Shown piece by piece: positions 1,269 through 59,480 of a DNA stretch of 64,000 bases (its first letter is position 1; each line of letters begins with the position of its first letter). Under the pieces are notes generated by a model. The model had not been told where the DNA came from and did no database searches. It worked only from the letters and a program-made list of their open reading frames with translations. The translations under genes and the position numbers were made by a program. The stretch is from NCBI GenBank assembly GCA_951406725.2, contig OX597818.1, positions 21,948,001-22,012,000 on the forward strand. Direction: 5' to 3'. Origin of the DNA: Octopus vulgaris. Lineage: Eukaryota.

Positions 1269-2152
1269 TTTCATTAGCATCTTCTTACAATTCTGTTTCC
1301 ATTTCTTGCCAAGTGACACCTAGGGCAGAGAAATGTACTGTATACATTGGTAGGCCATTAAAGCAAACACACCAGATTGTTCATTTATAGAGTAATGTGA
1401 AGGAGGAAGACAGAGAAAAAGGAAAAAATAAAAAATAGAAAAGTAAACAAATAAATGGGGGAAAGAAAAGAAAATTCACAGCGACAATGCTCTTCTCAAT
1501 ATGTGTGATGTACCAGTTAAGGCAATCTTTTACACTTCCTGCATGCATGGTAAACCAGGAATCATTCTTAAATAATTTTCAATTCCTTTTTTGATCATTC
1601 CAAGTGCTCCTACAATCACTGGTATTGTAACTGTCTTGAGATGCCACATCTTTTTGATTTCAATTAGCAAATCTTTATATTTTCTGAGCTTATCAAATTC
1701 TTTTGCTGAGATATTATGGTCACAGGGTATGCCCATGTCAATCAATAAACAGACTTTATTACTTTTGTCTTTCACATCAATATCTGGTTTATTTGCCTTG
1801 ATGGTCCAGTCTGTACATACTTGGAAGTCCCAAAGAATAGTTACATTTTCTCCCTCAGTTACAGCCTTAGGTTGGTGCTTGTACCGTTTGTCAGTAGTTT
1901 TGATTTAATAATGCCGACACATCCAATGTAGATATTGGCCAACTCTGTCATGTCTTGATTTGTACTCTACAAGTGCTAAAACCTTACATCCAGAGATTAG
2001 GTGGTCAACTGTTTCTATCCCATTGTTGCAGTATCAGCACTTCGGGTCTACACCATTTTTTATCACATTGGCTTGATAGTTATGGGTCAATAAACTCTGA
2101 TCTTGGCTAGCCAAGATAAAGCCTTCACTCTCTACCTTTAGCCCTGAGCTCC

Positions 2153-5400: not shown

Positions 5401-6479
5401 ATGTGACTTTATTGTAATTGAAATTAAAGAAAAAAAATTACTTGTTATGTGTTTAGAAAAAGATTTGTTTTGAAATATTATATTGAAATGGAGTTAACTT
5501 TGAAATTAAATCAAGTAAAACAAACAACCTCATTCTTTTCATTATTCCTATTATTGTAGTTTTAGTCTTTTTTTTCAATGTTTTTTTCTTCAAAACATAT
5601 CAGAGAACAGCTCATGATTGTATGGAGAAAGACATTAGTTATACTAACTCTAAGAAGGAATAGATGAGTAAAAAAAAAAAAAAAAAATAATAATAATAGT
5701 AATAATAATAATTTACTAAATTGATCACCAAAAATGGGCTAATGGCAGCAGGTAGCAGAATCAGTAAAAAAAATAGTTATAACTGACACCTCTTCATATT
5801 ATGAGCTCAAATCCTGATGCTAAAGTTAGAAATCCTTTTCGTCATGGATTAATACTGTAGGGATTCTACTGTCTCCTATATCTGTCAAGAATTGGTTTTG
5901 TGCTTAAAGAAGAAATTATTGCGAAAAAAAATTCTTCTGATCAGAAAGTTATGTATAAATTTCTTCATTTTTATAGATCATCATCCTTCAAAACGGCTAT
6001 TTATCTTTTGATAGTTCCATAAATGATTGGAACTAATAAGAAAAATAATGTAGTTTTAATATCGTTTTGATTTTAAAATCTATTTTGAATTAAATATTTG
6101 AATGTCATACCTGTTTCCATTATTATCATTTTTTTGTTTCTACATTATGATTTTTAGGTTCAGTCCTCTCTCTTTAATAACCTATATGAGCCTTAAAATG
6201 TAAAGATTGTAGAAGGTTCCCATATGATAAATACTATTAAATTTTGGTACAATCTACTAATGTTATGTTAGCATGTCTGCATTTTAAATTTAATATGTAT
6301 TGTAAATAACACATCTCAGATGGTGCATGGCTTGTTCTGTTTTCAAGCATGAAGTCAATAACTTGAAATTTTTTTTAGAAATTTAACAAAAAAAAATGCA
6401 TCTTTTGGATTGTTCTTCTGTTTTTAATTTTTTTTTTTTAATATCTTGCACTAACATTTGTTGCCTTTTTTTATTGCAG

Positions 6480-6503
6480 AGAGTTTGGAATTATTGATGT
6501 CAG
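6480..6503 (+). CDS. Candidate 24-nt frame-preserving microexon of the CAP/SORBS gene (x-SLELLMS-x, phase 1/1)
   Basis: Branch point CACTAAC at 6449-6455, polypyrimidine tract, TGCAG acceptor ending 6479, and CAG|GTTTCT donor at 6504 (weak intronic side). Length is divisible by 3 and the phase matches the acceptor at 30368. Confidence 0.3.
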
Positions 6504-6997
6504 GTTTCTCCGCTTGCATGGCTCGCCTCATTAAGCATAGTACATTGATTACTTGACTTCATATAAAGTTGAGCTGTAGAATTAACTAATTATTTACTGT
6601 GCTATGATGATTGTTGTTACTATGACAACCAATAACATACATCATTTTCCAGCCCCATTATCAAACCATTCTCAGACCCATTCTAGTACAAAAAAAGAAA
6701 AAGGAAGGAAAGAGCACGAAATAGAAAAGCTTGTGTTCTGTTGTTCCCCTCATTTGCTAATATTATTTAGATTCCAGTCTGGCTTATAGACTAACAATAA
6801 TCCCTTTCATAACTACCATTCTGGGAAGCTCCATGTAATTATACACATATACAAACAATAATTTATGAAAGATTAATGATTCTGCTTCCAGCTCCATATT
6901 TTTAAACATATCTTGTTCATCTCCTAGAAATGTGCACTAATTATTTTGTGTCTCCTAAATATCTGAATTTCAGATAATAACAAAAACACATGATAAT

Positions 6998-9900
6998 ATG
7001 AGATATAAGGACCCTTTATACTTTATCCAGCCTCTGTTATTATCTAATACGCAACACATTAGCAAAATATCAAATACTTTCATTTACCTGTTCATCAACT
7101 CCATCATTTGTAATGTTATTAATAAAATGCAAAGCCCAACATTGTATAAGTATGACACAAACCAACAATCTTTCTTCAGTATAGACAAAGATACAAGTGA
7201 TTCTCTATACACTGGTAATGAAGAAAATACTAACATTTACTCTCTAAACTCTGAAGCTTATCAACAGAAGAGTGTGCCTAAAAGTACATTTCCCTTTGAT
7301 GATACCATGACTAGATTTGAAATGGGTGCAAGAGATCAAAACTATACTGAGGAGGATTTAGCTAAATCTAACAATTCTTCTATCAATGATAGGTCTCAGA
7401 ACAGATCAAACCAAGCTAATATTAGTAATCATGTGAAAACTGACAGCTTGCTAGCTCATAAATCAAAATTTGTAGATGTCAAAGATTATGCACATGAAGA
7501 TCAGTATAGGAGAAATGTATCTGAAGAAATATCACTTCTTGAAGAAAATAGAGCAAACTACAAACAGTTTGCTTCACAGCTTGGTGCCCAGTTATGGAAC
7601 TCACAGAAGGAAATGAAGGAGGAGCGATCCAAGCACAAACCTGGTAGTAATGACCCTGTTAATCGTATAGATCATCATACCTATCAGTCTTATGCTGCTG
7701 GAATACTACATTCCTCAAAAAGATCTGAGAAATTTTTAAAGCTCAAGAAAAACTTTGACATACTCAATCAGATTTCTGTTCTTGAGAATCACTATGGCAT
7801 TTCTAGTGCTGCTGTGTCTGAACCAAACAACAATAACTATAATAAGCTTCCTCCTAAAAAACTTCGCATGCTGAACCAACTCTACCAGGAATTAAATGAT
7901 GCGCAAAGCAAAAGAGAATTCTATTGCTCTCTACATCCTGTCCAAAATCACTGGAATCCAAATAAGGACCAAGGGTTGAAGCTTCAAAAACCTTTTAGAG
8001 ATCGATTTGCAGTTTACAGTAAAGGTGTTAACAGAGACCAACCTGTGAAACATGCCGAGATAGGTCAAATAAAGTCATCACAGTCAGTTAAGAATCTATG
8101 TATGAAATATACCAAACTTGATAATGAGAACAAAGATCAGAAATTGAAATGTGCCAAAAGTAATTCCAACTCAAAACAACACAGTTTTGCAAGCAACACT
8201 TTACCAAGGGTTCTTACAGAAGGAAAAAAAGACAATTTGGGATCATACACACCCCGACCTACTCATGGTACTAATATTGAAGAAGTTCCACATTTATATG
8301 AAATTCATGTAAAACATGCTCGGTCATTGCCTCGCCTAAATTTGCAATCATTACACATTCGTTCTGAATCGGCACCTTATGAAAATAAACGTGAGAGGCA
8401 TTCTCCAGTTCTGACTAGGTCTTCATCATGCAGAGACTCTTTCTTTGATTTCTCAAAGAATTTAGAAAATAATAACACCAACAGCAGCAGCAATGACTTT
8501 CATGGAAATTTTCCAGAAAATAATTCATCTATTTCAGCAATTCATAACAATTTGACATTAAGTTCACCACATGCAAATGAGTGTTTAAATAAATCATCTT
8601 TTAGTTCATCTTCAACTGAAAATGATATTCATTTCAATGGCAGTAAGTATCAATTTTGTGAAGAATCTACAAGAAATCCACATGAAAACCTGTCTTTTAA
8701 GCATGATAGAAAGTTAACAGTAATGAACAAAGACAGTGTCATGAATAACATGACTGCCATTGATTCTCATCCATCTTCTCAGAAGGAAAACTGCAATCCT
8801 TTCCAAACTGAAAATGATTACAATCAGATCACAGCACCTCTAACAAATGGGAACAAAGATCATCAGAATTCTACAGCAAGGAATAATGATGATACTGCGA
8901 ATCCAGTATTTTATATCCGTGATGTAAAGAGTTTTGTCAAAGACAATAATGAATTTTATAGGGAATCTCTTTTTGATGTACCAGACCAGTATTTTGAAGT
9001 TCCAGTTTTAAATTCTTCACCTCCAGATTCTCCTCCACCTATTGATGAATTAGATAGGGAAGAAGTAACCTTTCTAATGCAGTCACTTGACCCCTATGAT
9101 ATTTATCCTGACAAACCTTTTACAACAGATGATCATTCTGTTTATTTTGATGATGACTTGAGACAAGGACAGAGATTATATAAATCCTTATCTGTACCTT
9201 CTTTCCACACTGGAAATGAAGCAGAGGATTATTTATTAGAGAGCCAACCTGTGGAATCTGAAGATTTGCATGATGACAACAAAAATCTAAATCAAATTAA
9301 AGATGGCTATCATCTTAATTTTACAATGCCATACTCTTTGCAAGCACCTATGCAGCCATTGGAACATGTTGAACCTCAAGAGCAAGTTCCAAATCATATT
9401 CAAGATACATATAGTGCTAGTAATTTTCAATCAGAAAATAACCAAATATACAAAATTGATGAAAATTTAACTATTCAAGGGCTTGACAGTGCTGATAAGG
9501 AACTAATAAGAAACCACATTAATAATTTAAATGGAGAGTGTTTACTTTCTGAACTGTTGTGCTCACGTAATAGAAGGTCTCATAGGATTTCAAATAAGCA
9601 AAATAACTATACAAATAGTAAAGTTGATCCCCAAAATATTGTAGAAAACTCTAAAGAAAATAAGGCTATCTCTAACACAATTGGAGACAGGTCTACTTTA
9701 AGTTCAGTTGTCATTTCACCCAATCCAATTTCTTTGACAACTGAATGTAGAAGACCTACCACAACTAGTCACTCCCTCCAACTAAGTTCTAACCCCTTCT
9801 ATACTCCTGCCAGCTCAGAAATTTCCACTTCATATCAGTCTGACTTATTGCCTAAGTCATCTGATAGTAAGATAGTGAAAAAAGCATCTAAACCACCAGA

Positions 9901-10718
9901 GGTTCCTCCTCGTACATCAGGTATAAGCATTATTAAAGCAGCTAGATCAGGTGTACCACCTCATATATGTAGAATAACCTCAGCAAAAACATCTCCTGTA
10001 CTAGATCTGCCACCAAGCATATCTGGAATAAACCCACTTAAAAGATATGACTACTCTGTTTCCCCAGACACATCTGGGATAAATCCATTTAAAACATCAA
10101 GCCAACCAGATATATCTACAAACATATCTGGAGTTAATCCATTAAATACATATAACCAGTCTAATGTCACAACAATTGGAGTAAATCCTTTTCTAACATT
10201 TAGTCAATCAGATATATCTCCAAGCAGGTCTAGTATCAACTCCTTTCAAACATCTAGTCAACCTAATCTATCTCTTAACACCTCTGGAATGAATCCATTT
10301 AAAGCTGCTATCCCATCAGATAGGCCTCTTAACACATTTGCATCAAATCCATTTAAACCCTCTAATTTGTCACAGCTATCTCATAGCACATCTGGAGCTA
10401 GTGTAAATGTATTATCTAATCAACCAGATTTATCAGCTGGCATTCATGGAGTTAACACTGTCAAAACACCACAAACTCAACCAGTTTTATTGAATGATAC
10501 TCACAGAATGAATATTGTCAACACAATGCAAAATGAACTACAAAACAACAACTGGCAAAGAACACTTCCACAAATGACTTCAAATACCACAGCTACTACT
10601 ACTACTACTTCTACAATAACTACAACTGCTAATGCAACAACTACTATTAGTGCTACTACATCAACCACAACTGCAGAACAGGAAATGATTATTTCACAGC
10701 CAGACCAAGAAAATACAG
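6998..10718 (+). CDS. SORBS1: Giant (~3.7 kb) exon of the CAP/sorbin and SH3 domain-containing protein gene; largely disordered Ser/Asn-rich region; probably an alternative first or cassette exon
   Basis: Uninterrupted 1246-codon ORF in very AT-rich DNA, which cannot be chance. Donor ACAG|GTGAAT after 10718 is phase 1 and joins in frame (G+CT=Ala) to exon 30368. The 5' boundary is uncertain: in-frame stop at 6956-6958; possible starts are ATG 6998, ATG 7127 (aaaATG context) or the acceptor CAG at 6971-6973. Gene assignment rests on splice-phase continuity with the downstream SORBS-like exons. Confidence 0.75.
10022..10555 (+). repeat. Coding tandem repeat, about 10 units of ~54 nt (18 aa), consensus SG(I/V/M)NP(F/L)..S.QPD.S
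   Basis: Unit starts at 10022, 10073, 10127, 10175, 10229, 10283, 10337, 10391, 10445 and 10502 (spacing 48-57 nt, mostly 54). Confidence 0.8.
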
Positions 10719-11532
10719 GTGAATCATTTTACACCTGATTCATTAGTTTATATTGAAAAGTATAATGATAATAGTAATAATTGGTTCCCTATTTAGGAAA
10801 AGTCCTCTTTATTTTAGTACTAATTTTATGTGGTTTGATTTTGTAGTTTCTTGGTTCATCTATTCTTTCTTTTTGTTTTTGGCTTTCAAATTTATTAATT
10901 TCTTTCATTAATAGTTAACATACTTAATTATTTTTGTTTTCATTTATGGTTTATCATTGTCTTTAAATTGCTTTCTGGAGAAACACACACATACACACTC
11001 TCTCTCTCTCTTTCTCTAACACACACAATGCCTTAGCGCGGCCTTAACTTTTATGGTTAAAAATGAACTGACAAAAAGTGTGTGTGTTTGTGTCAATAAA
11101 TGTATTTGCAAATATATTCAACCCTCCCACTAACCTAAATGAAGAAAAATTTCCATTCCTGTTAAAAGCTTATTAATTTCATTTATCTTAATTGAAATTA
11201 ATTTTTTTTGTTTAGAAGTTTAAAATTTAATGTGAATATGTATTTTAAAAATGATGATAATTGTTTTTAATAAGGCAAAGCAAACTAAAAAAAAAATTTT
11301 TAGTAAGAGGAAGGAATATTTGATTAAATCAGCCTCAGTACCCAACTGGTACTTTGAAAGGCAAAAGTGACCTTAGTGAGATTTGAACTCAAAATATATA
11401 AATAGTTGGAATAAATTCTAAGAATCCTTTTATCCAGCACTATCAATTCTGCCAATCTAATGACCTTAATAATAATAATAATAATAATAATGATGATGAT
11501 GATAATGATGGTTAAATAATACATACAAACAC

Positions 11533-11775: not shown

Positions 11776-12195
11776 TTATATATATATACACACACACACA
11801 CACATACATATATATATTTCTTTACATATAGATAATCATAAACATTTAATATTAATATATAGTTTCTTGGCATTCTTTCCATGAAAACTGGAATAAAAAT
11901 GACTCTATGTTAATGTCTCTCTATCAATCATTTTTTTTTTAATGGATTATTAATGATGTTTTGGTAGTCTCTGTAAGAAATTCACTTTGCAGTAATGTTG
12001 TTCCTATGTCAATTTAACTATATGACACCTTGGACAAATATCTTTCTTTACAGCCTCAAATTTGGGCAATGCCTTCTAAGTTAAATTTTTTTTAAAGGGA
12101 AACTACATGAAAAACTGTTTTTGTGTGTGTATAATGTGTGTGTGTGTGTTTTATACATTTCAGCACTAAGCTGTGGCCATGCTGGAGCACCACTA

Positions 12196-19685: not shown

Positions 19686-19690
<5 letters not shown>

Positions 19691-20589
19691 TTTCTTCCCC
19701 TGACTTGCAGCGATGTCCATGAGCAGGCTAAGATTCTCGCTTCTATTTCATACATACATACATTTGTCTACCGTTTAAATGTTTTGAACTTATAACCACC
19801 AATCTGCTTTGCTTTCCTTTTCTCTCTACATGCCACCCTAAAAACATCGCCATTCCCGCCCGTTTCTCTAAAGTTCAACCTTCGCATATTCCCTTTAATT
19901 CGATCTCCACCATTCACTATCATTTCTTCCCCTGACTTGCAGCGATGTCCATGAGCAGGCTAAGATTCTCGCTTCTATTTCATACATACATACATTTGTC
20001 TACCGTTTAAATGTTTTGAACTTATAACCACCAATCTGCTTTGCTTTCCTTTTCTCTCTACATGCCACCCTAAAAACATCGCCATTCCCGCCCGTTTCTC
20101 TAAAGTTCAACCTTCGCATATTCCCTTTAATTCGATCTCCACCATTCACTATCATTTCTTCCCCTGACTTGCAGCGATGTCCATGAGCAGGCTAAGATTC
20201 TCGCTTCTATTTCATACATACATACATTTGTCTACCGTTTAAATGTTTTGAACTTATAACCACCAATCTGCTTTGCTTTCCTTTTCTCTCTACATGTCAC
20301 CCTAAAAACATCGCCATTCCCGCCCGTTTCTCTAAAGTTCAACCTTCGCATATTCCCTTTAATTCGATCTCCACCATTCACTATCATTTCTTCCCCTGAC
20401 TTGCAGCGATGTCCATGAGCAGGCTAAGATTCTCGCTTCTATTTCATACATACATACATTTGTCTACCGTTTAAATGTTTTGAACTTATAACCACCAATC
20501 TGCTTTGCTTTCCTTTTCTCTCTACATGCCACCCTAAAAACATCGCCATTCCCGCCCGTTTCTCTAAAGTTCAACCTTCGCATATTCCC
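19686..20589. repeat. Tandem array of ~3.9 near-identical 232-bp units
   Basis: The motif CATTTCTTCCCCTGACTTGCAGCG recurs at 19689, 19921, 20153 and 20385. Only one substitution was seen (CATGTCACC in unit 3); no spacers. Confidence 0.97.
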
Positions 20590-30367: not shown

Positions 30368-30468
30368 CTTATAAACATCAAACATCGGACATCAAGCCGA
30401 GTCCAACAGCAGCCGAGAAAGAGAGGAGACGGAAAGAAGAAGATGAAGAATACAGAAAAAAGAGATTG
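30368..30468 (+). CDS. SORBS1: CAP/SORBS coding exon (AYKHQTSDIKPSPTAAEKERRRKEEDEEYRKKRL), charged coiled-coil-like segment
   Basis: Acceptor TTTCTACAG ending 30367 (phase 1) and donor TTG|GTGAGT at 30469 (phase 0); purine-rich coding composition; in frame with both neighbouring exons. Confidence 0.85.
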
Positions 30469-36824: not shown

Positions 36825-37687
36825 GTGTTTGATGAAGACACTTTCATCCTGTTAGTTAAAAAAATCATCAATAGCAGATATCATTGTGATACTGGTTCCC
36901 AGCCATGTGTTTTTTCATGTTGGGAAACAGAAGATAGTCAGTTGGGGTCAAATCAAGAGAATAAGGTGGGTAATCAACCAGTTCAAAGCCACAGTCTCTT
37001 TGCCTCTAAATCAAGCTGGTGGAGCCAACACTCATCCTGAGTTAAGAAATATTCAAAGAAACCAACTGGATCTGCCTCAAACAATATTAGATTTTCTTGT
37101 GATATGATCTGCCTGGTACACTTTTGGTCAGGTGTCAGAAGACATAGCACCTATCGAGCAGAAACCATCATACCAAGTTCATTATGCAGAATATTCTCAA
37201 CTCGCTCATGGCATATGTTTATAGCATTGGCTATTTGATTTATAGTAAATTGCCTGTCATCTATCAGCATGTGGTGAACACAATCAATGTTTTCCTTGAT
37301 TGTGACAGTTGCAAGACGTTCAGACTTTGGGTCATCTTCAAGCCTCTCTCTCCCTCTCCTAAATTCAATTGCCCGCTTTTGCACTGTTGATAAAGCTGAA
37401 GTATCATCCCCTAATGTAGCAAGCATGTCAGCATGAATGTCCTTTGGGGTTAAACTGTTTTTCTGCAGGTGCTTGGTAACACCACAATGCCAAATTTTTC
37501 CCATTTTCAAAAGATGTATGTCACTACTAGTTACTTTTTAAGTCTTCTTTGAACAGTCAGATGTCAGTTTACCTGAAATGAAAGAGTGCAGTTATTAATA
37601 AGAAGAGTTGAAATGAATACATGCAAGATTTCACAGCTTTAGCTTCACTCTTGCATCATCAGCTTATGAACTCTCCAGCCACTCTTG
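36825..37687 (-). mobile_element. Internally deleted mariner transposon remnant
   Basis: ORF 37151..37510 resembles a mariner N-terminal HTH region (KDIHADMLATLG..STVQK..EFRRGRERLEDDP..DDRQFTINQIANAINICHERVENILHNELGM). The minus strand at ~36880-36995 gives GFELVDYPPYSLDLTPTDYLLFPNMKK (YSPDLAPxD motif). A TIR-like end lies near 37664-37687; most of the catalytic core is missing. Confidence 0.85.
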
Positions 37688-42069: not shown

Positions 42070-42155
42070 GAACAACTTTATGACGAAGAAAGGCGTAGGA
42101 AAAAGATTCTTGAAGAAGCAGATATAGAAGCCAGAAAGCATTGTGATGTATTTAC
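42070..42155 (+). CDS. SORBS1: CAP/SORBS coding exon (EQLYDEERRRKKILEEADIEARKHCDVF-T); not in the ORF track
   Basis: Acceptor TCTCTTATCAG ending 42069 (phase 0) and donor AC|GTAAGT at 42156 (phase 2). The ADIEARKH motif resembles the conserved ADI.ARRH segment preceding SH3-1 in SORBS1/CAP (recalled, not aligned). Confidence 0.88.
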
Positions 42156-47703: not shown

Positions 47704-47748
47704 TAGATCCAGCCCACTTCGTATAATTTCCTATTCTAGAGATTTTGG
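47704..47748 (+). CDS. Candidate 45-nt alternative exon of CAP/SORBS (T-RSSPLRIISYSRDF-G), phase 2/2
   Basis: Acceptor TTCCTTATTTCTTGCCATTTCAG (tandem CAG-TAG) and consensus donor GG|GTAAGT at 47749. It is open in exactly the frame required between exons 42070-42155 and 57534-57674. Confidence 0.55.
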
Positions 47749-48357
47749 GTAAGTGGAAGTATAAGCTAAGACAAAAGCAAATCCTTCCCTCTCTGTGCAC
47801 CCACCTCCAGTGGCTGAATCCACCCAGCTGTGTTATTCCTTTTCTATGGCTGATGTTGTTGTTATTGTTGTTTAGCAAGTGTTGCCATCTTAATAATATG
47901 CATATGTTTGCTCTCAGTGTTTATTTATTTATGTATATTTACAAACACTTGCACTTAAGTATCATTATTAGAATTTTTATTGTAAGATAATATTTAGTTA
48001 CATCTTCTGACATTCTGAGTTAAAACTCCCAATGAGGTTGACTTTGCCTTTCATCCAATGGGGTGCAATAAAATAAGTACTAGAGTCAGGATAGGTATTG
48101 GAGTAATTTCAGAAATGTGTAGCCCTGTACCTGTGTAATAGTAAATAAATTAATGATATTATAAGAAAAACTTGAACACTGGACCAAATGCTTTGCAAGG
48201 TTTGATTACATTTCTTTATAAATTCAACACTTTTGCAAGTTAAAAAAAGTACATCTTAATTGTATAATTACACAGTGTTCCCACTACCTACAACAGTAAG
48301 CTGCATCTACTCATATATAGTGTCTATTTGGTGTAAGGTAGACCAAGCCAGTAAGGT

Positions 48358-51629: not shown

Positions 51630-52993
51630 CTGTTGTTGGCTGAAGAAGTTCCAGGTATAGAAGCAAGGTCTAGAATCAAAGGGTCTTAGAGTTAACCTAA
51701 CAAAAACCAAAGTCATAGTAAGTAGGAAGGCAGACAAATCACAAATCCCTTCAGATAGATGGCCCTGCTCAATCCATTGAAAAGGTGTAGGTTGAAACTC
51801 CATGAGTGTAAGCTTTGGATACGGTGCACCACCATCAGAGGATGGTTAACAAGGAAACTAACTTTTGTATGTGGAAGGTGTACAGGTGCAATAAACGCTG
51901 AAAATGCACAGATAATAAACTCCATCATCTGCCAGGGTGACAAGCTGAAGGTAGTAGATAGCTTCTGTTATCTAGGTGACCAAGTTAGTAGGAGAGGTGC
52001 CTCTCTCTTAGAGTGAAAGATAGATTGTTTGATGCCTGTGTGCGAACAGCTATACTGCATGGCAGTGAAACATGGGCTATGACAGCTGAGGATATGCATA
52101 GGCTTGAAAAAAATGAAACCAATATGCTTTGCTGAATATGCGATGTCAGTGTGCATGTTCAACAGAGTGTAAGCATCTTGAGAGAAAAGTTAGGTATAAG
52201 AGGAATCGGATGTGGTGTGCAAGAGAGACGACTGTACTGGTATGGAAATGTGATGTGTATGGACAAGGAAAACTGTGTAAAAAAATGCCAATTTCTAACT
52301 GTGGAGGGAACCTGTTGTAGAGGTAGACCCAGGAAGACATGGGACGAGGTGGTGAAGCATGATCTTCGAACTTTGAGTCTCACAGAGACAATGACTGGTG
52401 ACCAAGACCTTTGCGGATGTGTTGTGCTTGAGAGGACCTGTTAAGCCAAGTGCACCTGTGATGGTGACACGAACATCTTTTGAATGTTGAGCCTTACGAA
52501 GGCAAAGTGACTGAGTTCCTTTCTAGTGTTGTGCTCCACAGAGGCAAAATGGCTGAGTTCCTTTTAAGCATTGGGCCTCATGGAGGCAAATTGGCTGAGT
52601 TCCTTTCGAGTGTTAGGCCTCATGGAGGCAAGGTGGCTTGGTTCCTTTTGAGTGATGGACCTCATGCAGCCAAGACCTTTGGCATTATGTTGTGCTTGAG
52701 AAGAAGACCCATCAAGCCGAGCAAAATTGCAGTTGTGACAGATACTGGTGTCACACAAATTGACACCTGTGCCAGTGGCATGTAAATGCACCCCAGTGTC
52801 ACGCAAATGGCATTTATGCTGGTGGCACGTAAAAGCACCCATTACACTTTCGGAGTGGTTGGCATTAGGAAGGGCATCCAGCTGTAAGAAACCATGCCAA
52901 ATCAGACTGGAGTCTGGTGCTGCCTTCCAGCATGCCAGCCCAGTCAAACTGCTCAACCCATGCCAGCATGGACAACAAACATTAAATGATGAC
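51630..52993 (+). mobile_element. 5'-truncated RTE-clade LINE (RT C-terminal region, 3' UTR, ATG tail), pseudogenised
   Basis: Translation across frameshifts gives QGLESKGLRVNLTKTKVIV..DKLKVVDSFCYLGDQVS..LFDACVRTAILHGSETW..LREKLGIRGI..VQERRLYWYGNVMCM..VEGTCCRGRPRKTWDEVVKHDL, typical RTE-type C-terminal motifs. The 3' UTR ends ..GGACAACAAACATTAAATGATGAC. Confidence 0.88.
52484..52675 (+). repeat. ~39-bp degenerate tandem repeat (about 5 units) in the RTE 3' UTR
   Basis: Recurrent G.GCCTCATGGAGGCAA..TGGCTGAGTTCCTTT..AG motif; produces the periodic ORF 52480..52785. Confidence 0.8.
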
Positions 52994-57533: not shown

Positions 57534-57674
57534 TCCATCCCAGAAATCTCCAATACCAAATGATAGGTTTGAAGAAGTGGTAAGCACACTGAGTGTACCT
57601 CCTGAGCGCCGTAGAGGCTTTCAAATCCAAGGAAAAGCAAGAGCACTCTATTCATTCAAAGCCCAGAATTCAAA
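57534..57674 (+). CDS. SORBS1: CAP/SORBS coding exon including the start of the first SH3 domain (PSQKSPIPNDRFEEVVSTLSVPPERRRGFQIQGKARALYSFKAQNSK)
   Basis: Acceptor TTTTCCTGCAG ending 57533 (phase 2, AC+T=Thr) and donor AA|GTAAAC at 57675. ARALYSF is the SH3 ALYxF signature, and PSQKSPIP..R matches the linker before SH3-1 of invertebrate CAP as recalled. The track ORF 57593..57790 is in the wrong frame. Confidence 0.9.
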
Positions 57675-57765: not shown

Positions 57766-59480
57766 GGTTTCCAGCATTTCAAAAATATAAGTTTATTGAA
57801 AATTAAAAAATTTGGCACGATAATATATTTTCCAAGCTGAATTGCTGGAGTTATTTCACTTTTTCCAGAAAAATGTTTTAAAAAAAGTCATAGAGGTTTA
57901 AAGTTTGATTATTTTCACCCAGTCAGGAAACAGTATTTGGAAGCTATTTTATGCGTGACTGCACATTTTGTCGTAACCATCCGGAAAATAGCTTGTGTTG
58001 TCAAGAAAGCATAAACAACACGTCTTTTGTAGTTTTAACAGAAAGATTTGGAAGAATTAGCATGCAAGTTCTTTAGTATTTTCTTTCATGTAAATAAATG
58101 TTAGCTGTTAATTTTTAGCACACCTCACAACCACCTCAGTGACAAAAAGGAATGAGTAAACAACACATACTTTGTAGTTTTAATGCAAATGCGATAACAT
58201 GTTAGATGGTTTCAATACAGTTTTAACAGAAAGATTTGGAAGAATTAGATGCAAATTCTTTAGTATTTTCTTTCATGTAAATAAATGTTTCTGTTAATTT
58301 AAAAATTTGGCAGCAAACTGTTATAAAATGACAATGTTCTAAAAGATGTACATGTTTATATGTTATATATGAAAATAAAAGAGTGAACAAAATATGCTTA
58401 AAAAATGCAGTAAGAAGCAAATTTAGAAAATATTTTTAAAATTAAAAATGGAAGTTAGAAATACATTCAATCAATTTCTCAAACAAATCACAATTTTCAT
58501 ACCTTCTGTGCCACATAAATTCACAGAGATATGAATCTACTATAGAATGGTGAGTATCACAGCATCGTTTATTACCTCGGTTCACAGAAGCCCATGTACT
58601 CTCCACTTGTTGAATGTGGGTGCCATCTTTCGGGTTAACAAACCCAATGCTGTGGTTCACCGTTTATGCTCAAAATTGTAACCATCAATTTCAGGAATGT
58701 GTGAGTATTCCCTTCACAAATTACTGAAAATTGTGGTTCCTGGAAGAATTGAGTGATGTATACATTCTTTCAGTGTGTCATGTTTCTAACATGGCACTGC
58801 ATACAGAAAAACCTATGTCTGGTCTTGCAACACACTCATCCAAAAATCCACTGCTCAGGTAGGACCCTTCTTCGGTTGTACTTACATCTTCAGAAAACTG
58901 TTTCATCGATCTCAGCAATCTTTCCAGGACCACCAACTTGAATTGGATGATGGAGCAAGTCCTCCGCACATATTTCTTTAACATAGTGATTATAATCAAT
59001 GGCTGTGCTACGGCTCATCCCCAGTTCTTCAATACAAAACCCGACTGAAGTCAATTCCTTAACCCATGAGTAAATGAAGAGCATTACAGTCCTAAGAGGA
59101 AGGTTACCATCTTCAAATCATGTGTCTTTCCTCACCAACACAGACTTCATGCATTCTCGACACCAGCATCGCCAGTACATGTTCCTATGACGTCTTTTTG
59201 TATACATAGCATGCGTCTTCCTTTTACATAGTTTCCTTATTACTATGGAAACAGACACATGCTTTCTTGCAGACAAAAGAGTTCCCATGTTCCACTTGTT
59301 ACTATGGAAACAGGCATGAATATGTTTGTGACATACAATTGGCTAAAATTACCAAAATTTTCAAACTTTAATTGCTAATAACTCTTTATTTATTGATTTA
59401 TAATGAAAATGATTTTTACATAATTCATTAGCCTATAAAGGTGTATCATTACAATTCGAACAAAATTGATGCTGGCAACC
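57766..59480 (-). mobile_element. Merlin (IS1595/ISXO2-like DDE) DNA transposon, degenerate
   Basis: Minus-strand transposase remnant ~58442-59260 reads QVGGPGKIAEIDETVF..KYNRRR..QWIFG..ILPGTTIFSN..VNHSIGFVNPKDGTHIQQVESTW..DSYLCEFMWHRRY. Termini GGTTTCCAGCAT (57766) and ATGCTGGCAACC (ending 59480) are inverted repeats (11/12). Internal ~100-bp direct repeat at ~58013-58113 and ~58218-58300. No TSD recognisable. Confidence 0.85.

What the first reader, a model, noticed from the sequence alone, without database searches (positions are those of the whole stretch)
9780..10555. Tandem 18-aa repeat building an NPF-motif array next to a PxxPxR SH3 ligand
Seen: about 10 repeats of ~54 nt containing NPF four times (GINPF, GVNPF, GMNPF, ASNPF) plus NPL and NSF variants. 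Two more NPFs lie upstream (SSNPFY, ENCNPFQ), and KPPEVPPR is at ~9890-9913. Known: NPF motifs bind EH domains (Eps15, intersectin/Dap160, EHD), and PxxPxR is a class II SH3 ligand. Inference: repeat expansion created a multivalent EH-binding platform that could couple this cytoskeletal adaptor to endocytic machinery, and the PxxPxR may bind the protein's own SH3 domains. I do not know of such an array in SORBS proteins.
Basis: partly seen in the sequence, partly recalled or inferred. Interest (0 to 1): 0.7.

Follow-up and report, generated by a model that had tools for sequence, protein, structure and literature searches.

The report
Octopus-only NPF repeat in adhesion adaptor
In octopuses, one giant exon of the SORBS/CAP cell-adhesion adaptor gene has grown a decayed 18-amino-acid repeat carrying four NPF motifs that other molluscs lack, and these likely let this protein form grip endocytic EH-domain proteins such as Eps15 weakly, though neutral repeat growth in a repeat-prone exon remains nearly as plausible.

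Summary
In detail: a real ~54-nt coding repeat (lag-54 identity 0.46, shuffle maximum 0.38) with NPF at 10082, 10184, 10292 and 10346, two NPL, one NSF, upstream NPFs at 9791 and 8795, and KPPEVPPR at 9890-9913. Seven units are clear, nine when defined blind to NPF; 'about 10' includes decayed flanks. It lies near the end of a 4.2-kb exon (6480-10718) of the Octopus SORBS/CAP gene, which starts a SoHo-less, three-SH3 isoform also found in other molluscs. The array is octopod-specific: 0 of 45 non-octopod homologues have two or more NPFs. Among the seven core units NPF codons change far less than spacers (pN 0.11 against 0.42), but this weakens with nine units (P 0.02-0.13) and vanishes with twelve. 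Between three octopods NPF columns vary as much as spacers (3/21 against 13/105), although each keeps four NPFs and the array is better conserved than flanking disordered sequence. Unrelated repeats arise in 7 of 45 homologues. Verdict: a probable redundant EH-binding array (about 0.5), binding untested; a modest new variant.

The parts
6480..10718 (+). Giant exon of the SORBS/CAP gene (AG acceptor 6478-6479, GT donor 10719-10720); its first ~500 nt have stops in all three frames, so it starts its own SoHo-less reading frame
   Evidence: contigs of 4 of 4 runs (RNA by guess) stop aligning at 10718, and 2 of 4 begin at 6480 with 30 unaligned letters
6998..10718 (+). Coding part, residues 1-1241 of the 1671-aa O. 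sinensis model XP_029637195 (99% identical)
7655..8137 (+). Unnamed conserved helical domain that marks this exon in molluscs and other unnamed animals
   Evidence: 43 hits; invariant R,Y,Y,A,G,L,S in 44 rows; no Pfam; helical model pLDDT 73.5, pTM 0.43; no Foldseek hit
8795..8803 (+). Isolated NPF (ENCNPFQ); lost (YPF) in the third octopod P0003, probably incidental
9791..9799 (+). Upstream NPF (SSNPFY), unchanged in all three octopod lineages
9857..10015 (+). Three decayed upstream repeat units at 18/17/18-codon spacing, without NPF
   Evidence: NPF-masked identity 0.47, 0.47, 0.54 against background maximum 0.46
9890..9913 (+). KPPEVPPR, class II SH3-ligand consensus; unchanged in three octopods, aligned with a poly-Pro-Lys stretch in the sister lineage
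10016..10384 (+). Seven core repeat units of 16-18 aa: NPL, NPF, NPL, NPF, NSF, NPF, NPF
10082..10090 (+). NPF of unit 2 (NSF in P0003)
10184..10192 (+). NPF of unit 4, invariant in three lineages
10238..10246 (+). NSF of unit 5 (NPF in P0003)
10292..10300 (+). NPF of unit 6, invariant in three lineages
10346..10354 (+). NPF of unit 7, invariant in three lineages
10385..10540 (+). One clear and two doubtful decayed downstream units, no NPF
10572..10674 (+). Thr-rich triplet-repeat tract before the donor
30368..30468 (+). Next coding exon (charged coiled-coil-like stretch)
   Evidence: tblastn with P0002 and splice signals
42070..42155 (+). Coding exon (EQLYDEERRRKK...)
47705..47749 (+). Small alternative exon, in RefSeq isoform P0002 and not in P0006 (ends approximate)
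57534..57674 (+). Exon with the start of SH3 domain 1; the remaining SH3 exons lie in G000:C5:22016341-22024766

Best explanation
An octopod-specific tandem expansion near the end of a giant SORBS/CAP exon put four NPF motifs, 18-36 residues apart, into a predicted disordered arm of a SoHo-less three-SH3 isoform, and these likely act as a redundant, low-affinity, multivalent ligand for tandem EH domains of Eps15 or intersectin. Shown: the repeat, its gene, its restriction to octopods, and four intact NPFs in each of three lineages. Inferred: selection keeps the number of NPFs rather than each one (unit 2 and unit 5 are lost in different lineages); the partner is Eps15/intersectin rather than EHD because no acidic residue follows within three places; the SH3 domains would hold the protein at adhesion or actin sites while the arm would concentrate early endocytic scaffolds there. 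KPPEVPPR is a plausible SH3 ligand with an unknown partner.
For: Core seven units: NPF columns pN 0.113 against 0.420 elsewhere, with similar synonymous change (pS 0.58 against 0.49), so not homogenised by conversion; NPF is the best-kept of 560 column triples. Neutral simulation: about 1 intact NPF expected, 4 seen (P 0.003-0.02); with nine units defined blind to NPF still P 0.007-0.04 for four intact. Between three octopods the array varies at 16 of 126 columns against 150 of 653 in background disordered sequence (P 0.003; scan permutation P 0.018), and 4 of the 7 NPF sites (9791, units 4, 6, 7) are invariant. Region predicted unfolded (pLDDT under 50 over residues 54-198 of 232, single sequence). 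EHD, Eps15-like and intersectin-like EH exons are in the genome (the last two labels are from recall). PMC12808100 (sections 4, 11): three copies of a suboptimal NPF suffice for EPS15 binding. PMC3570524 (passages, section 12, Table S1): nematode TAG-208, listed as SORBS3 orthologue, bound EHS-1 by two-hybrid and in vitro.
Against: Between species NPF columns vary as much as spacers (3 of 21 against 13 of 105, P=0.73); two of five ancestral array NPFs were lost over ~13% divergence, which neutral drift allows (P 0.30). The within-array signal depends on which units are counted: best-triple-corrected P 0.01-0.08 for seven, NPF departures 9 against 12-14 expected (P 0.02-0.13) for nine, no difference for twelve (6.0 against 6.5 per column). 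Unrelated tandem arrays occur in 7 of 45 non-octopod homologues, two checked lineages with a similar conserved-core contrast (anchoring on the core makes that partly circular). The finding was picked because it had NPFs. PMC3570524: nematode proteins with several NPFs were not recovered by EH baits. PMC12808100: NPF has several non-EH receptors. Ten ATGs precede the predicted start inside the exon.
Confidence: 0.5

Rival explanations
1. Neutral or nearly neutral slippage repeat in a repeat-prone disordered exon: one unit that happened to read NP[LF] was amplified in the octopod stem and is decaying; the NPFs have no selected partner.
For: 7 of 45 non-octopod homologues have their own unrelated arrays; flanking units have lost NPF altogether; NPF columns drift like spacers between species; the sister lineage (P0011, P0015) does without any NPF in a colinear exon.
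Against: Four intact NPFs exceed the neutral expectation even with blind unit choice (P 0.007-0.04); Asn is kept in 7 of 7 core units with both codons in use; units 6-7 vary at 1 of 39 columns, as little as blocks shared with the sister lineage.
Confidence: 0.33
2. The array is under selection but for another reader or property: a non-EH NPF receptor such as SEC23/24, or Asn-Pro turns and Phe residues acting as stickers of a condensate-forming arm, with spacers also constrained.
For: Between species the whole array, spacers included, is conserved (13 of 105 spacer columns against 23% background); NPL variants keep N-P but not F; PMC12808100 lists SEC23/24, SSBP/LDB1, AURKA and POLE2 as NPF receptors; nArgBP2 forms condensates (title and passages of PMC9898538).
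Against: Multiple spaced NPFs in a disordered cytoplasmic arm is the usual signature of EH ligands (PMC12808100, PMC8927860 introductions); the nuclear receptors do not fit a cytoskeletal adaptor.
Confidence: 0.14
3. The units fold into a small repeat (solenoid-like) domain in which N-P-F is a structural turn.
For: Regular 18-residue period with a recurring G-hydrophobic-N-P-hydrophobic core.
Against: No secondary structure and pLDDT about 42 in a single-sequence model (weak); unit length varies 16-20; spacers are Ser/Thr/Gln/Pro-rich with pN/pS 0.85.
Confidence: 0.03

Closest known systems
SORBS/SoHo family (CAP/ponsin, ArgBP2/nArgBP2, vinexin; Drosophila CAP; C. elegans SORB-1)
   Same: Three C-terminal SH3 domains in 2+1 spacing, best PDB hits SORBS1, vinexin, SORBS2; SoHo exons in the same locus; SoHo-less isoforms are known (vinexin beta, PMC5706990); CAP and nArgBP2 already bind dynamin/synaptojanin through SH3 (passages of PMC7259718, PMC9898538).
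   Different: This isoform starts in a 1241-aa exon with an unnamed domain; only octopods add an NPF repeat. No paper held NPF motif + EH domain + sorbin; none of the 20 listed had an NPF or EH term.
Multi-NPF EH ligands (synaptojanin 1, SCAMP1, epsin, Numb, AGFG1)
   Same: Several NPFs in a disordered stretch at a spacing that tandem EH domains could bridge; avidity from weak sites (PMC12808100, PMC8927860, PMC12370899 passages).
   Different: Those are, from my own knowledge, ancient and widely conserved; this one is lineage-specific, built by tandem duplication, turns over between species, and has no binding data.
C. elegans TAG-208 (SORBS3 orthologue) - EHS-1/Eps15 interaction
   Same: A SORBS protein bound to Eps15-type EH domains (PMC3570524).
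   Different: It was a 'specific' interactor, a class that mostly lacks NPF; I could not see whether TAG-208 has an NPF (figure not held). No repeat array is described.
EHD ligands (MICAL-L1, rabenosyn-5, Rab11-FIP2)
   Same: NPF core.
   Different: They have acidic residues after NPF (PMC13282721 passages); here the next three residues are KTS, LTF, KAA, KPS.

Membership tests
SORBS/SoHo adaptor family | Three C-terminal SH3 domains | tested here: met
   3 SH3 stretches in P0002 and P0008; exons mapped in and after the window
SORBS/SoHo adaptor family | SH3 domains closest to SORBS1/2/3 | tested here: met
   top 7 of 23 PDB hits are SORBS1, vinexin or SORBS2, best E 5.6e-38
SORBS/SoHo adaptor family | SoHo domain encoded by the gene | tested here: met
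   two exons 163-169 kb upstream, same strand, match Pfam Sorb positions 2-16 and 22-40 (E 0.013 and 0.00019, each below the cut-off because split); their splicing to the SH3 exons was not observed
SORBS/SoHo adaptor family | SoHo domain in this isoform | tested here: not met
   no Sorb hit in P0002, P0008 or 8 of 8 other SH3-bearing homologues; stops in all frames at the exon start; SoHo-less isoforms are known in the family
EH-domain ligand (class I, NPF) | NPF tripeptides, several copies | tested here: met
   4 in the array plus 2 upstream; 4 in the array in each of 3 lineages
EH-domain ligand (class I, NPF) | Motifs in a disordered, exposed region | tested here: met
   single-sequence model with no secondary structure over the array (weak evidence); no Pfam domain
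EH-domain ligand (class I, NPF) | Motif conserved above its flanks | tested here: inconclusive
   yes among 7 core units, weak among 9, no among 12 and between 3 species
EH-domain ligand (class I, NPF) | NPF-dependent binding to an EH domain | not testable with these tools
   needs a binding assay
EHD-selective ligand | Acidic residues directly after NPF | tested here: not met
   +1 to +3 are KTS, LTF, KAA, KPS, YTP; rule from PMC13282721 and PMC3570524 passages
Class II SH3 ligand | PxxPxR consensus in a disordered region | tested here: met
   PEVPPR 9896-9913, the only one in P0002, unchanged in 3 lineages; consensus recalled
Class II SH3 ligand | Binding to the protein's own SH3 domains | not tested
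   no call addressed it; ArgBP2 precedent uses a cluster between SH3 A and B (PMC3903627 passages)

The most novel reading that the evidence does not exclude
Octopods rewired an ancient adhesion adaptor by tandem amplification of a short motif: a SoHo-less SORBS isoform gained a valency-selected NPF array that directly tethers Eps15/intersectin endocytic scaffolds to SH3-anchored adhesion or synaptic sites, a link that squid-like relatives and other molluscs lack, and a datable case of a multivalent binding platform born from a repeat.
Probability: 0.35. Interest if true: 0.6.

Novelty: new variant of a known kind. Interest (0 to 1): 0.37.

Why it matters
If binding is real, it is a clean natural example of a new multivalent interaction surface arising by repeat expansion inside an old scaffold, with selection on motif number rather than on each motif, and it adds a direct EH route to the known dynamin route between SORBS proteins and endocytosis. 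It is testable in vitro with short fragments. It concerns one isoform in one clade and uses well-known parts, so its reach is limited; if neutral, it is one of several lineage-specific repeats in this exon.

Tried and rejected
Complex prediction of the octopus EHD EH domain with units 6-7: no verdict (score 0.15, mark 0.34, controls not folded); no evidence either way. More octopod sequences: search of shorter proteins found 0 of 1152 candidates; metagenome scan gave one unrelated methyltransferase contig, L006; the second own-genome hit L002 has 7 stops and lies among simple repeats. No DNA for P0003/P0005, so no between-species dN/dS. ESM Atlas gave no usable hit for the array or the conserved domain. 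Foldseek against PDB: 0 matches at E 0.001; VIA-align not run. First Sorb search of the genome found nothing at E 0.001. Earlier-findings look-ups returned nothing. Rejected: N-anchored alignment of the last three units (not the DNA register); PGAP1, IZUMO and New_glue Pfam hits (below cut-off); EHD as the likely partner (no acidic flank). The tree is the quick one; the careful search did not finish, and 11 near-copies were left out.

Full report
Observation. The stretch lies in one open frame of 1259 codons, 6959-10738 on the + strand. The repeat is real: DNA identity at lag 54 is 0.46 and none of 2000 codon shuffles exceeded 0.38. Units are 50-73% alike, too decayed for Tandem Repeats Finder. 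Seven units (10016-10384) fall in register by DNA alone, reading NPL, NPF, NPL, NPF, NSF, NPF, NPF; the three later N-anchored units do not. With NPF codons masked, nine units score 0.52-0.65 and three further upstream 0.47, background maximum 0.46. The upstream ones continue the 17-18 codon spacing through KPPEVPPR, so the SH3-ligand motif probably sits in a decayed unit (marginal).

The gene. The frame is 99% identical to residues 1-1241 of an Octopus sinensis RefSeq model of 1671 aa, with O. bimaculoides models at 94% and an unnamed octopod (P0003/P0010) at 87%. The models join the donor at 10719 to exons at 30368, 42070, 47705 (alternative) and 57534, then to SH3 exons beyond the window. 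The three SH3 domains match SORBS1, vinexin and SORBS2 best. Two exons 163-169 kb upstream match complementary halves of Pfam Sorb, so this is the SORBS/CAP locus. In 4 of 4 runs laid (RNA by guess, four studies) the contig over the array stops aligning at exactly 10718, with 30 letters left over, and in 2 of 4 a contig begins at 6480 likewise: a weak hint that the exon is 6480-10718 and is spliced. Its first 500 nt have stops in all frames and ten ATGs before the predicted start, so it cannot extend a SoHo frame; it opens a SoHo-less isoform (inference).

Distribution. A conserved unnamed domain (7655-8137) found 43 representatives, among them Haliotis, Littorina and Mercenaria isoforms; 8 of 8 SH3-bearing non-octopod hits have three SH3 and no SoHo. 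The exon is therefore old. The array is not: of 45 non-octopod homologues 43 have no NPF and 2 have one (many are single-exon frames), and a unit profile hits once in 1 of 54 non-octopod proteins against 7-8 times in each octopod protein. The closest outside lineage (P0011, P0015 and kin; unnamed, grouped with octopods at SH-aLRT 84 in a quick tree, inferred to be other cephalopods) is colinear along the exon, has a poly-Pro-Lys stretch where octopods have KPPEVPPR and a single K-P-L where unit 1 has N-P-L, and is about 110 residues shorter thereafter. The expansion thus dates to the octopod branch (inference).

Is NPF under selection? For: among the seven core units NPF columns have pN 0.113 against 0.420, with pS 0.58 against 0.49, and rank first of 560 triples. 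A star-shaped neutral simulation tuned to the spacers expects about one intact NPF; four has P 0.003-0.02, and any triple this conserved P 0.01-0.08. Across three octopod lineages the seven units vary at 16 of 126 columns against 150 of 653 in background disordered sequence (P 0.003; background excludes blocks shared with the sister lineage; scan permutation P 0.018), units 6-7 at 1 of 39. Against: with nine blind-chosen units, NPF departures are 9 against 12-14 expected (P 0.02-0.13), though four intact stays at P 0.007-0.04; with twelve there is no difference. Between species NPF columns vary at 3 of 21 and spacers at 13 of 105 (P 0.73): P0003 has NSF in unit 2 and NPF in unit 5, the reverse of the window, and has lost the NPF at 8795. 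The test is weak with three lineages. Each lineage keeps four array NPFs plus SSNPFY, which fits selection on number but also chance. Finally, 7 of 45 non-octopod homologues carry unrelated tandem arrays (z at least 6; shuffle maximum 4.3 in 20), and the two lineages examined show a conserved core of similar contrast (partly circular). This exon breeds repeats.

Mechanism. The array is predicted disordered (single sequence). The genome encodes a full EHD EH domain and two partial EH exons that I read from recall as Eps15 and intersectin. EHD prefers acidic residues after NPF (PMC13282721, PMC3570524, passages); none occur within three places here, which points to Eps15/intersectin. Tripling a suboptimal NPF was enough for EPS15 binding (PMC12808100, sections 4 and 11), EH domains gain by avidity and accept other Phe motifs (PMC12370899 and PMC8927860, passages), so the array would probably bind Eps15 in a tube whether or not selected for it. 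Nematode TAG-208, listed as SORBS3 orthologue, bound EHS-1 (PMC3570524, passages, section 12, one supplement row), but in that screen two proteins with several NPFs were not recovered. NPF also has non-EH receptors (PMC12808100). My best reading: a redundant low-affinity EH ligand that would bring early endocytic scaffolds to the adhesion or actin sites where the SH3 domains hold the protein (0.5); neutral repeat (0.33); another selected reader or property (0.14); folded repeat (0.03). KPPEVPPR and its flank vary at 1 of 22 columns; ArgBP2 self-associates by SH3 binding to its own proline cluster (PMC3903627, passages), but that cluster lies between SH3 domains, and 29 of 45 homologues have some PxxPxR, so self-binding is only a possibility.

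What is known. SORBS proteins have SoHo plus three SH3, with SoHo-less variants (PMC5706990, passages); CAP binds dynamin and acts in receptor endocytosis, and nArgBP2 SH3s bind dynamin and synaptojanin (PMC7259718, PMC9898538, passages). Searches for an NPF array in SORBS found nothing: 0 papers with all three terms, and none relevant in the listings apart from PMC3570524; the library lacks most subscription papers. Verdict: an accurate observation, an octopod-specific variant of known parts, with suggestive but fragile evidence of function. Interest 0.37.

Noticed in passing
window 7655-8137: Unnamed ~160-aa helical domain, strongly conserved at the start of SoHo-less SORBS isoforms across molluscs and other unnamed animals; no Pfam, Atlas or Foldseek match. 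From recall and untested, it may be related to the large neuronal insert of vertebrate nArgBP2. Possibly of more general interest than the repeat.
   Followed up: partly
window 6480-6997: First 518 nt of the exon are closed in all frames up to 6959 and hold ten ATGs; the sister lineage P0011 has about 150 more N-terminal residues, so octopods may have lost the old start. The upstream exon joined at 6480 was not identified.
   Followed up: partly
window ~8891-8974 and ~9461-9544: Two short blocks (PVFYIRDVKSF..., LDSADKELIRNHINNL...) conserved with the sister lineage inside otherwise disordered sequence; candidate binding motifs.
   Followed up: partly
P0012, P0013, P0014, P0021, P0042, P0047, P0050: Independent tandem arrays (periods about 10-20 aa) with different units in homologous giant exons of other animals.
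   Followed up: partly
window 10719-10738: The frame runs 6 codons past the splice donor to a stop; P0003/P0010 end the same way, either from unspliced DNA or a read-through form without SH3.
   Followed up: partly
L012:9040-9179 and L010:4692-4767 (G000:C5 ~21.779-21.785 Mb): SoHo domain split over two exons, 163-169 kb upstream of the window.
   Followed up: yes
window 19686-20589: Near-perfect 232-nt tandem repeat, 3.9 copies, 99% match, in an intron; possibly recent or an assembly effect.
   Followed up: no
window 1533-1904 (-), 37154-37537 (-), 52136-52441 (+), 58893-59117 (-): Short frames that look, from recall, like LINE reverse-transcriptase and mariner/IS1595-type transposase remnants in introns.
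   Followed up: no
P0008 residues ~1310-1330 and window 12166-12192: The extra peptide of the O. bimaculoides X1 model (DCGHAGAPP...) resembles a common octopus interspersed repeat, suggesting exonisation or a modelling artefact.
   Followed up: no
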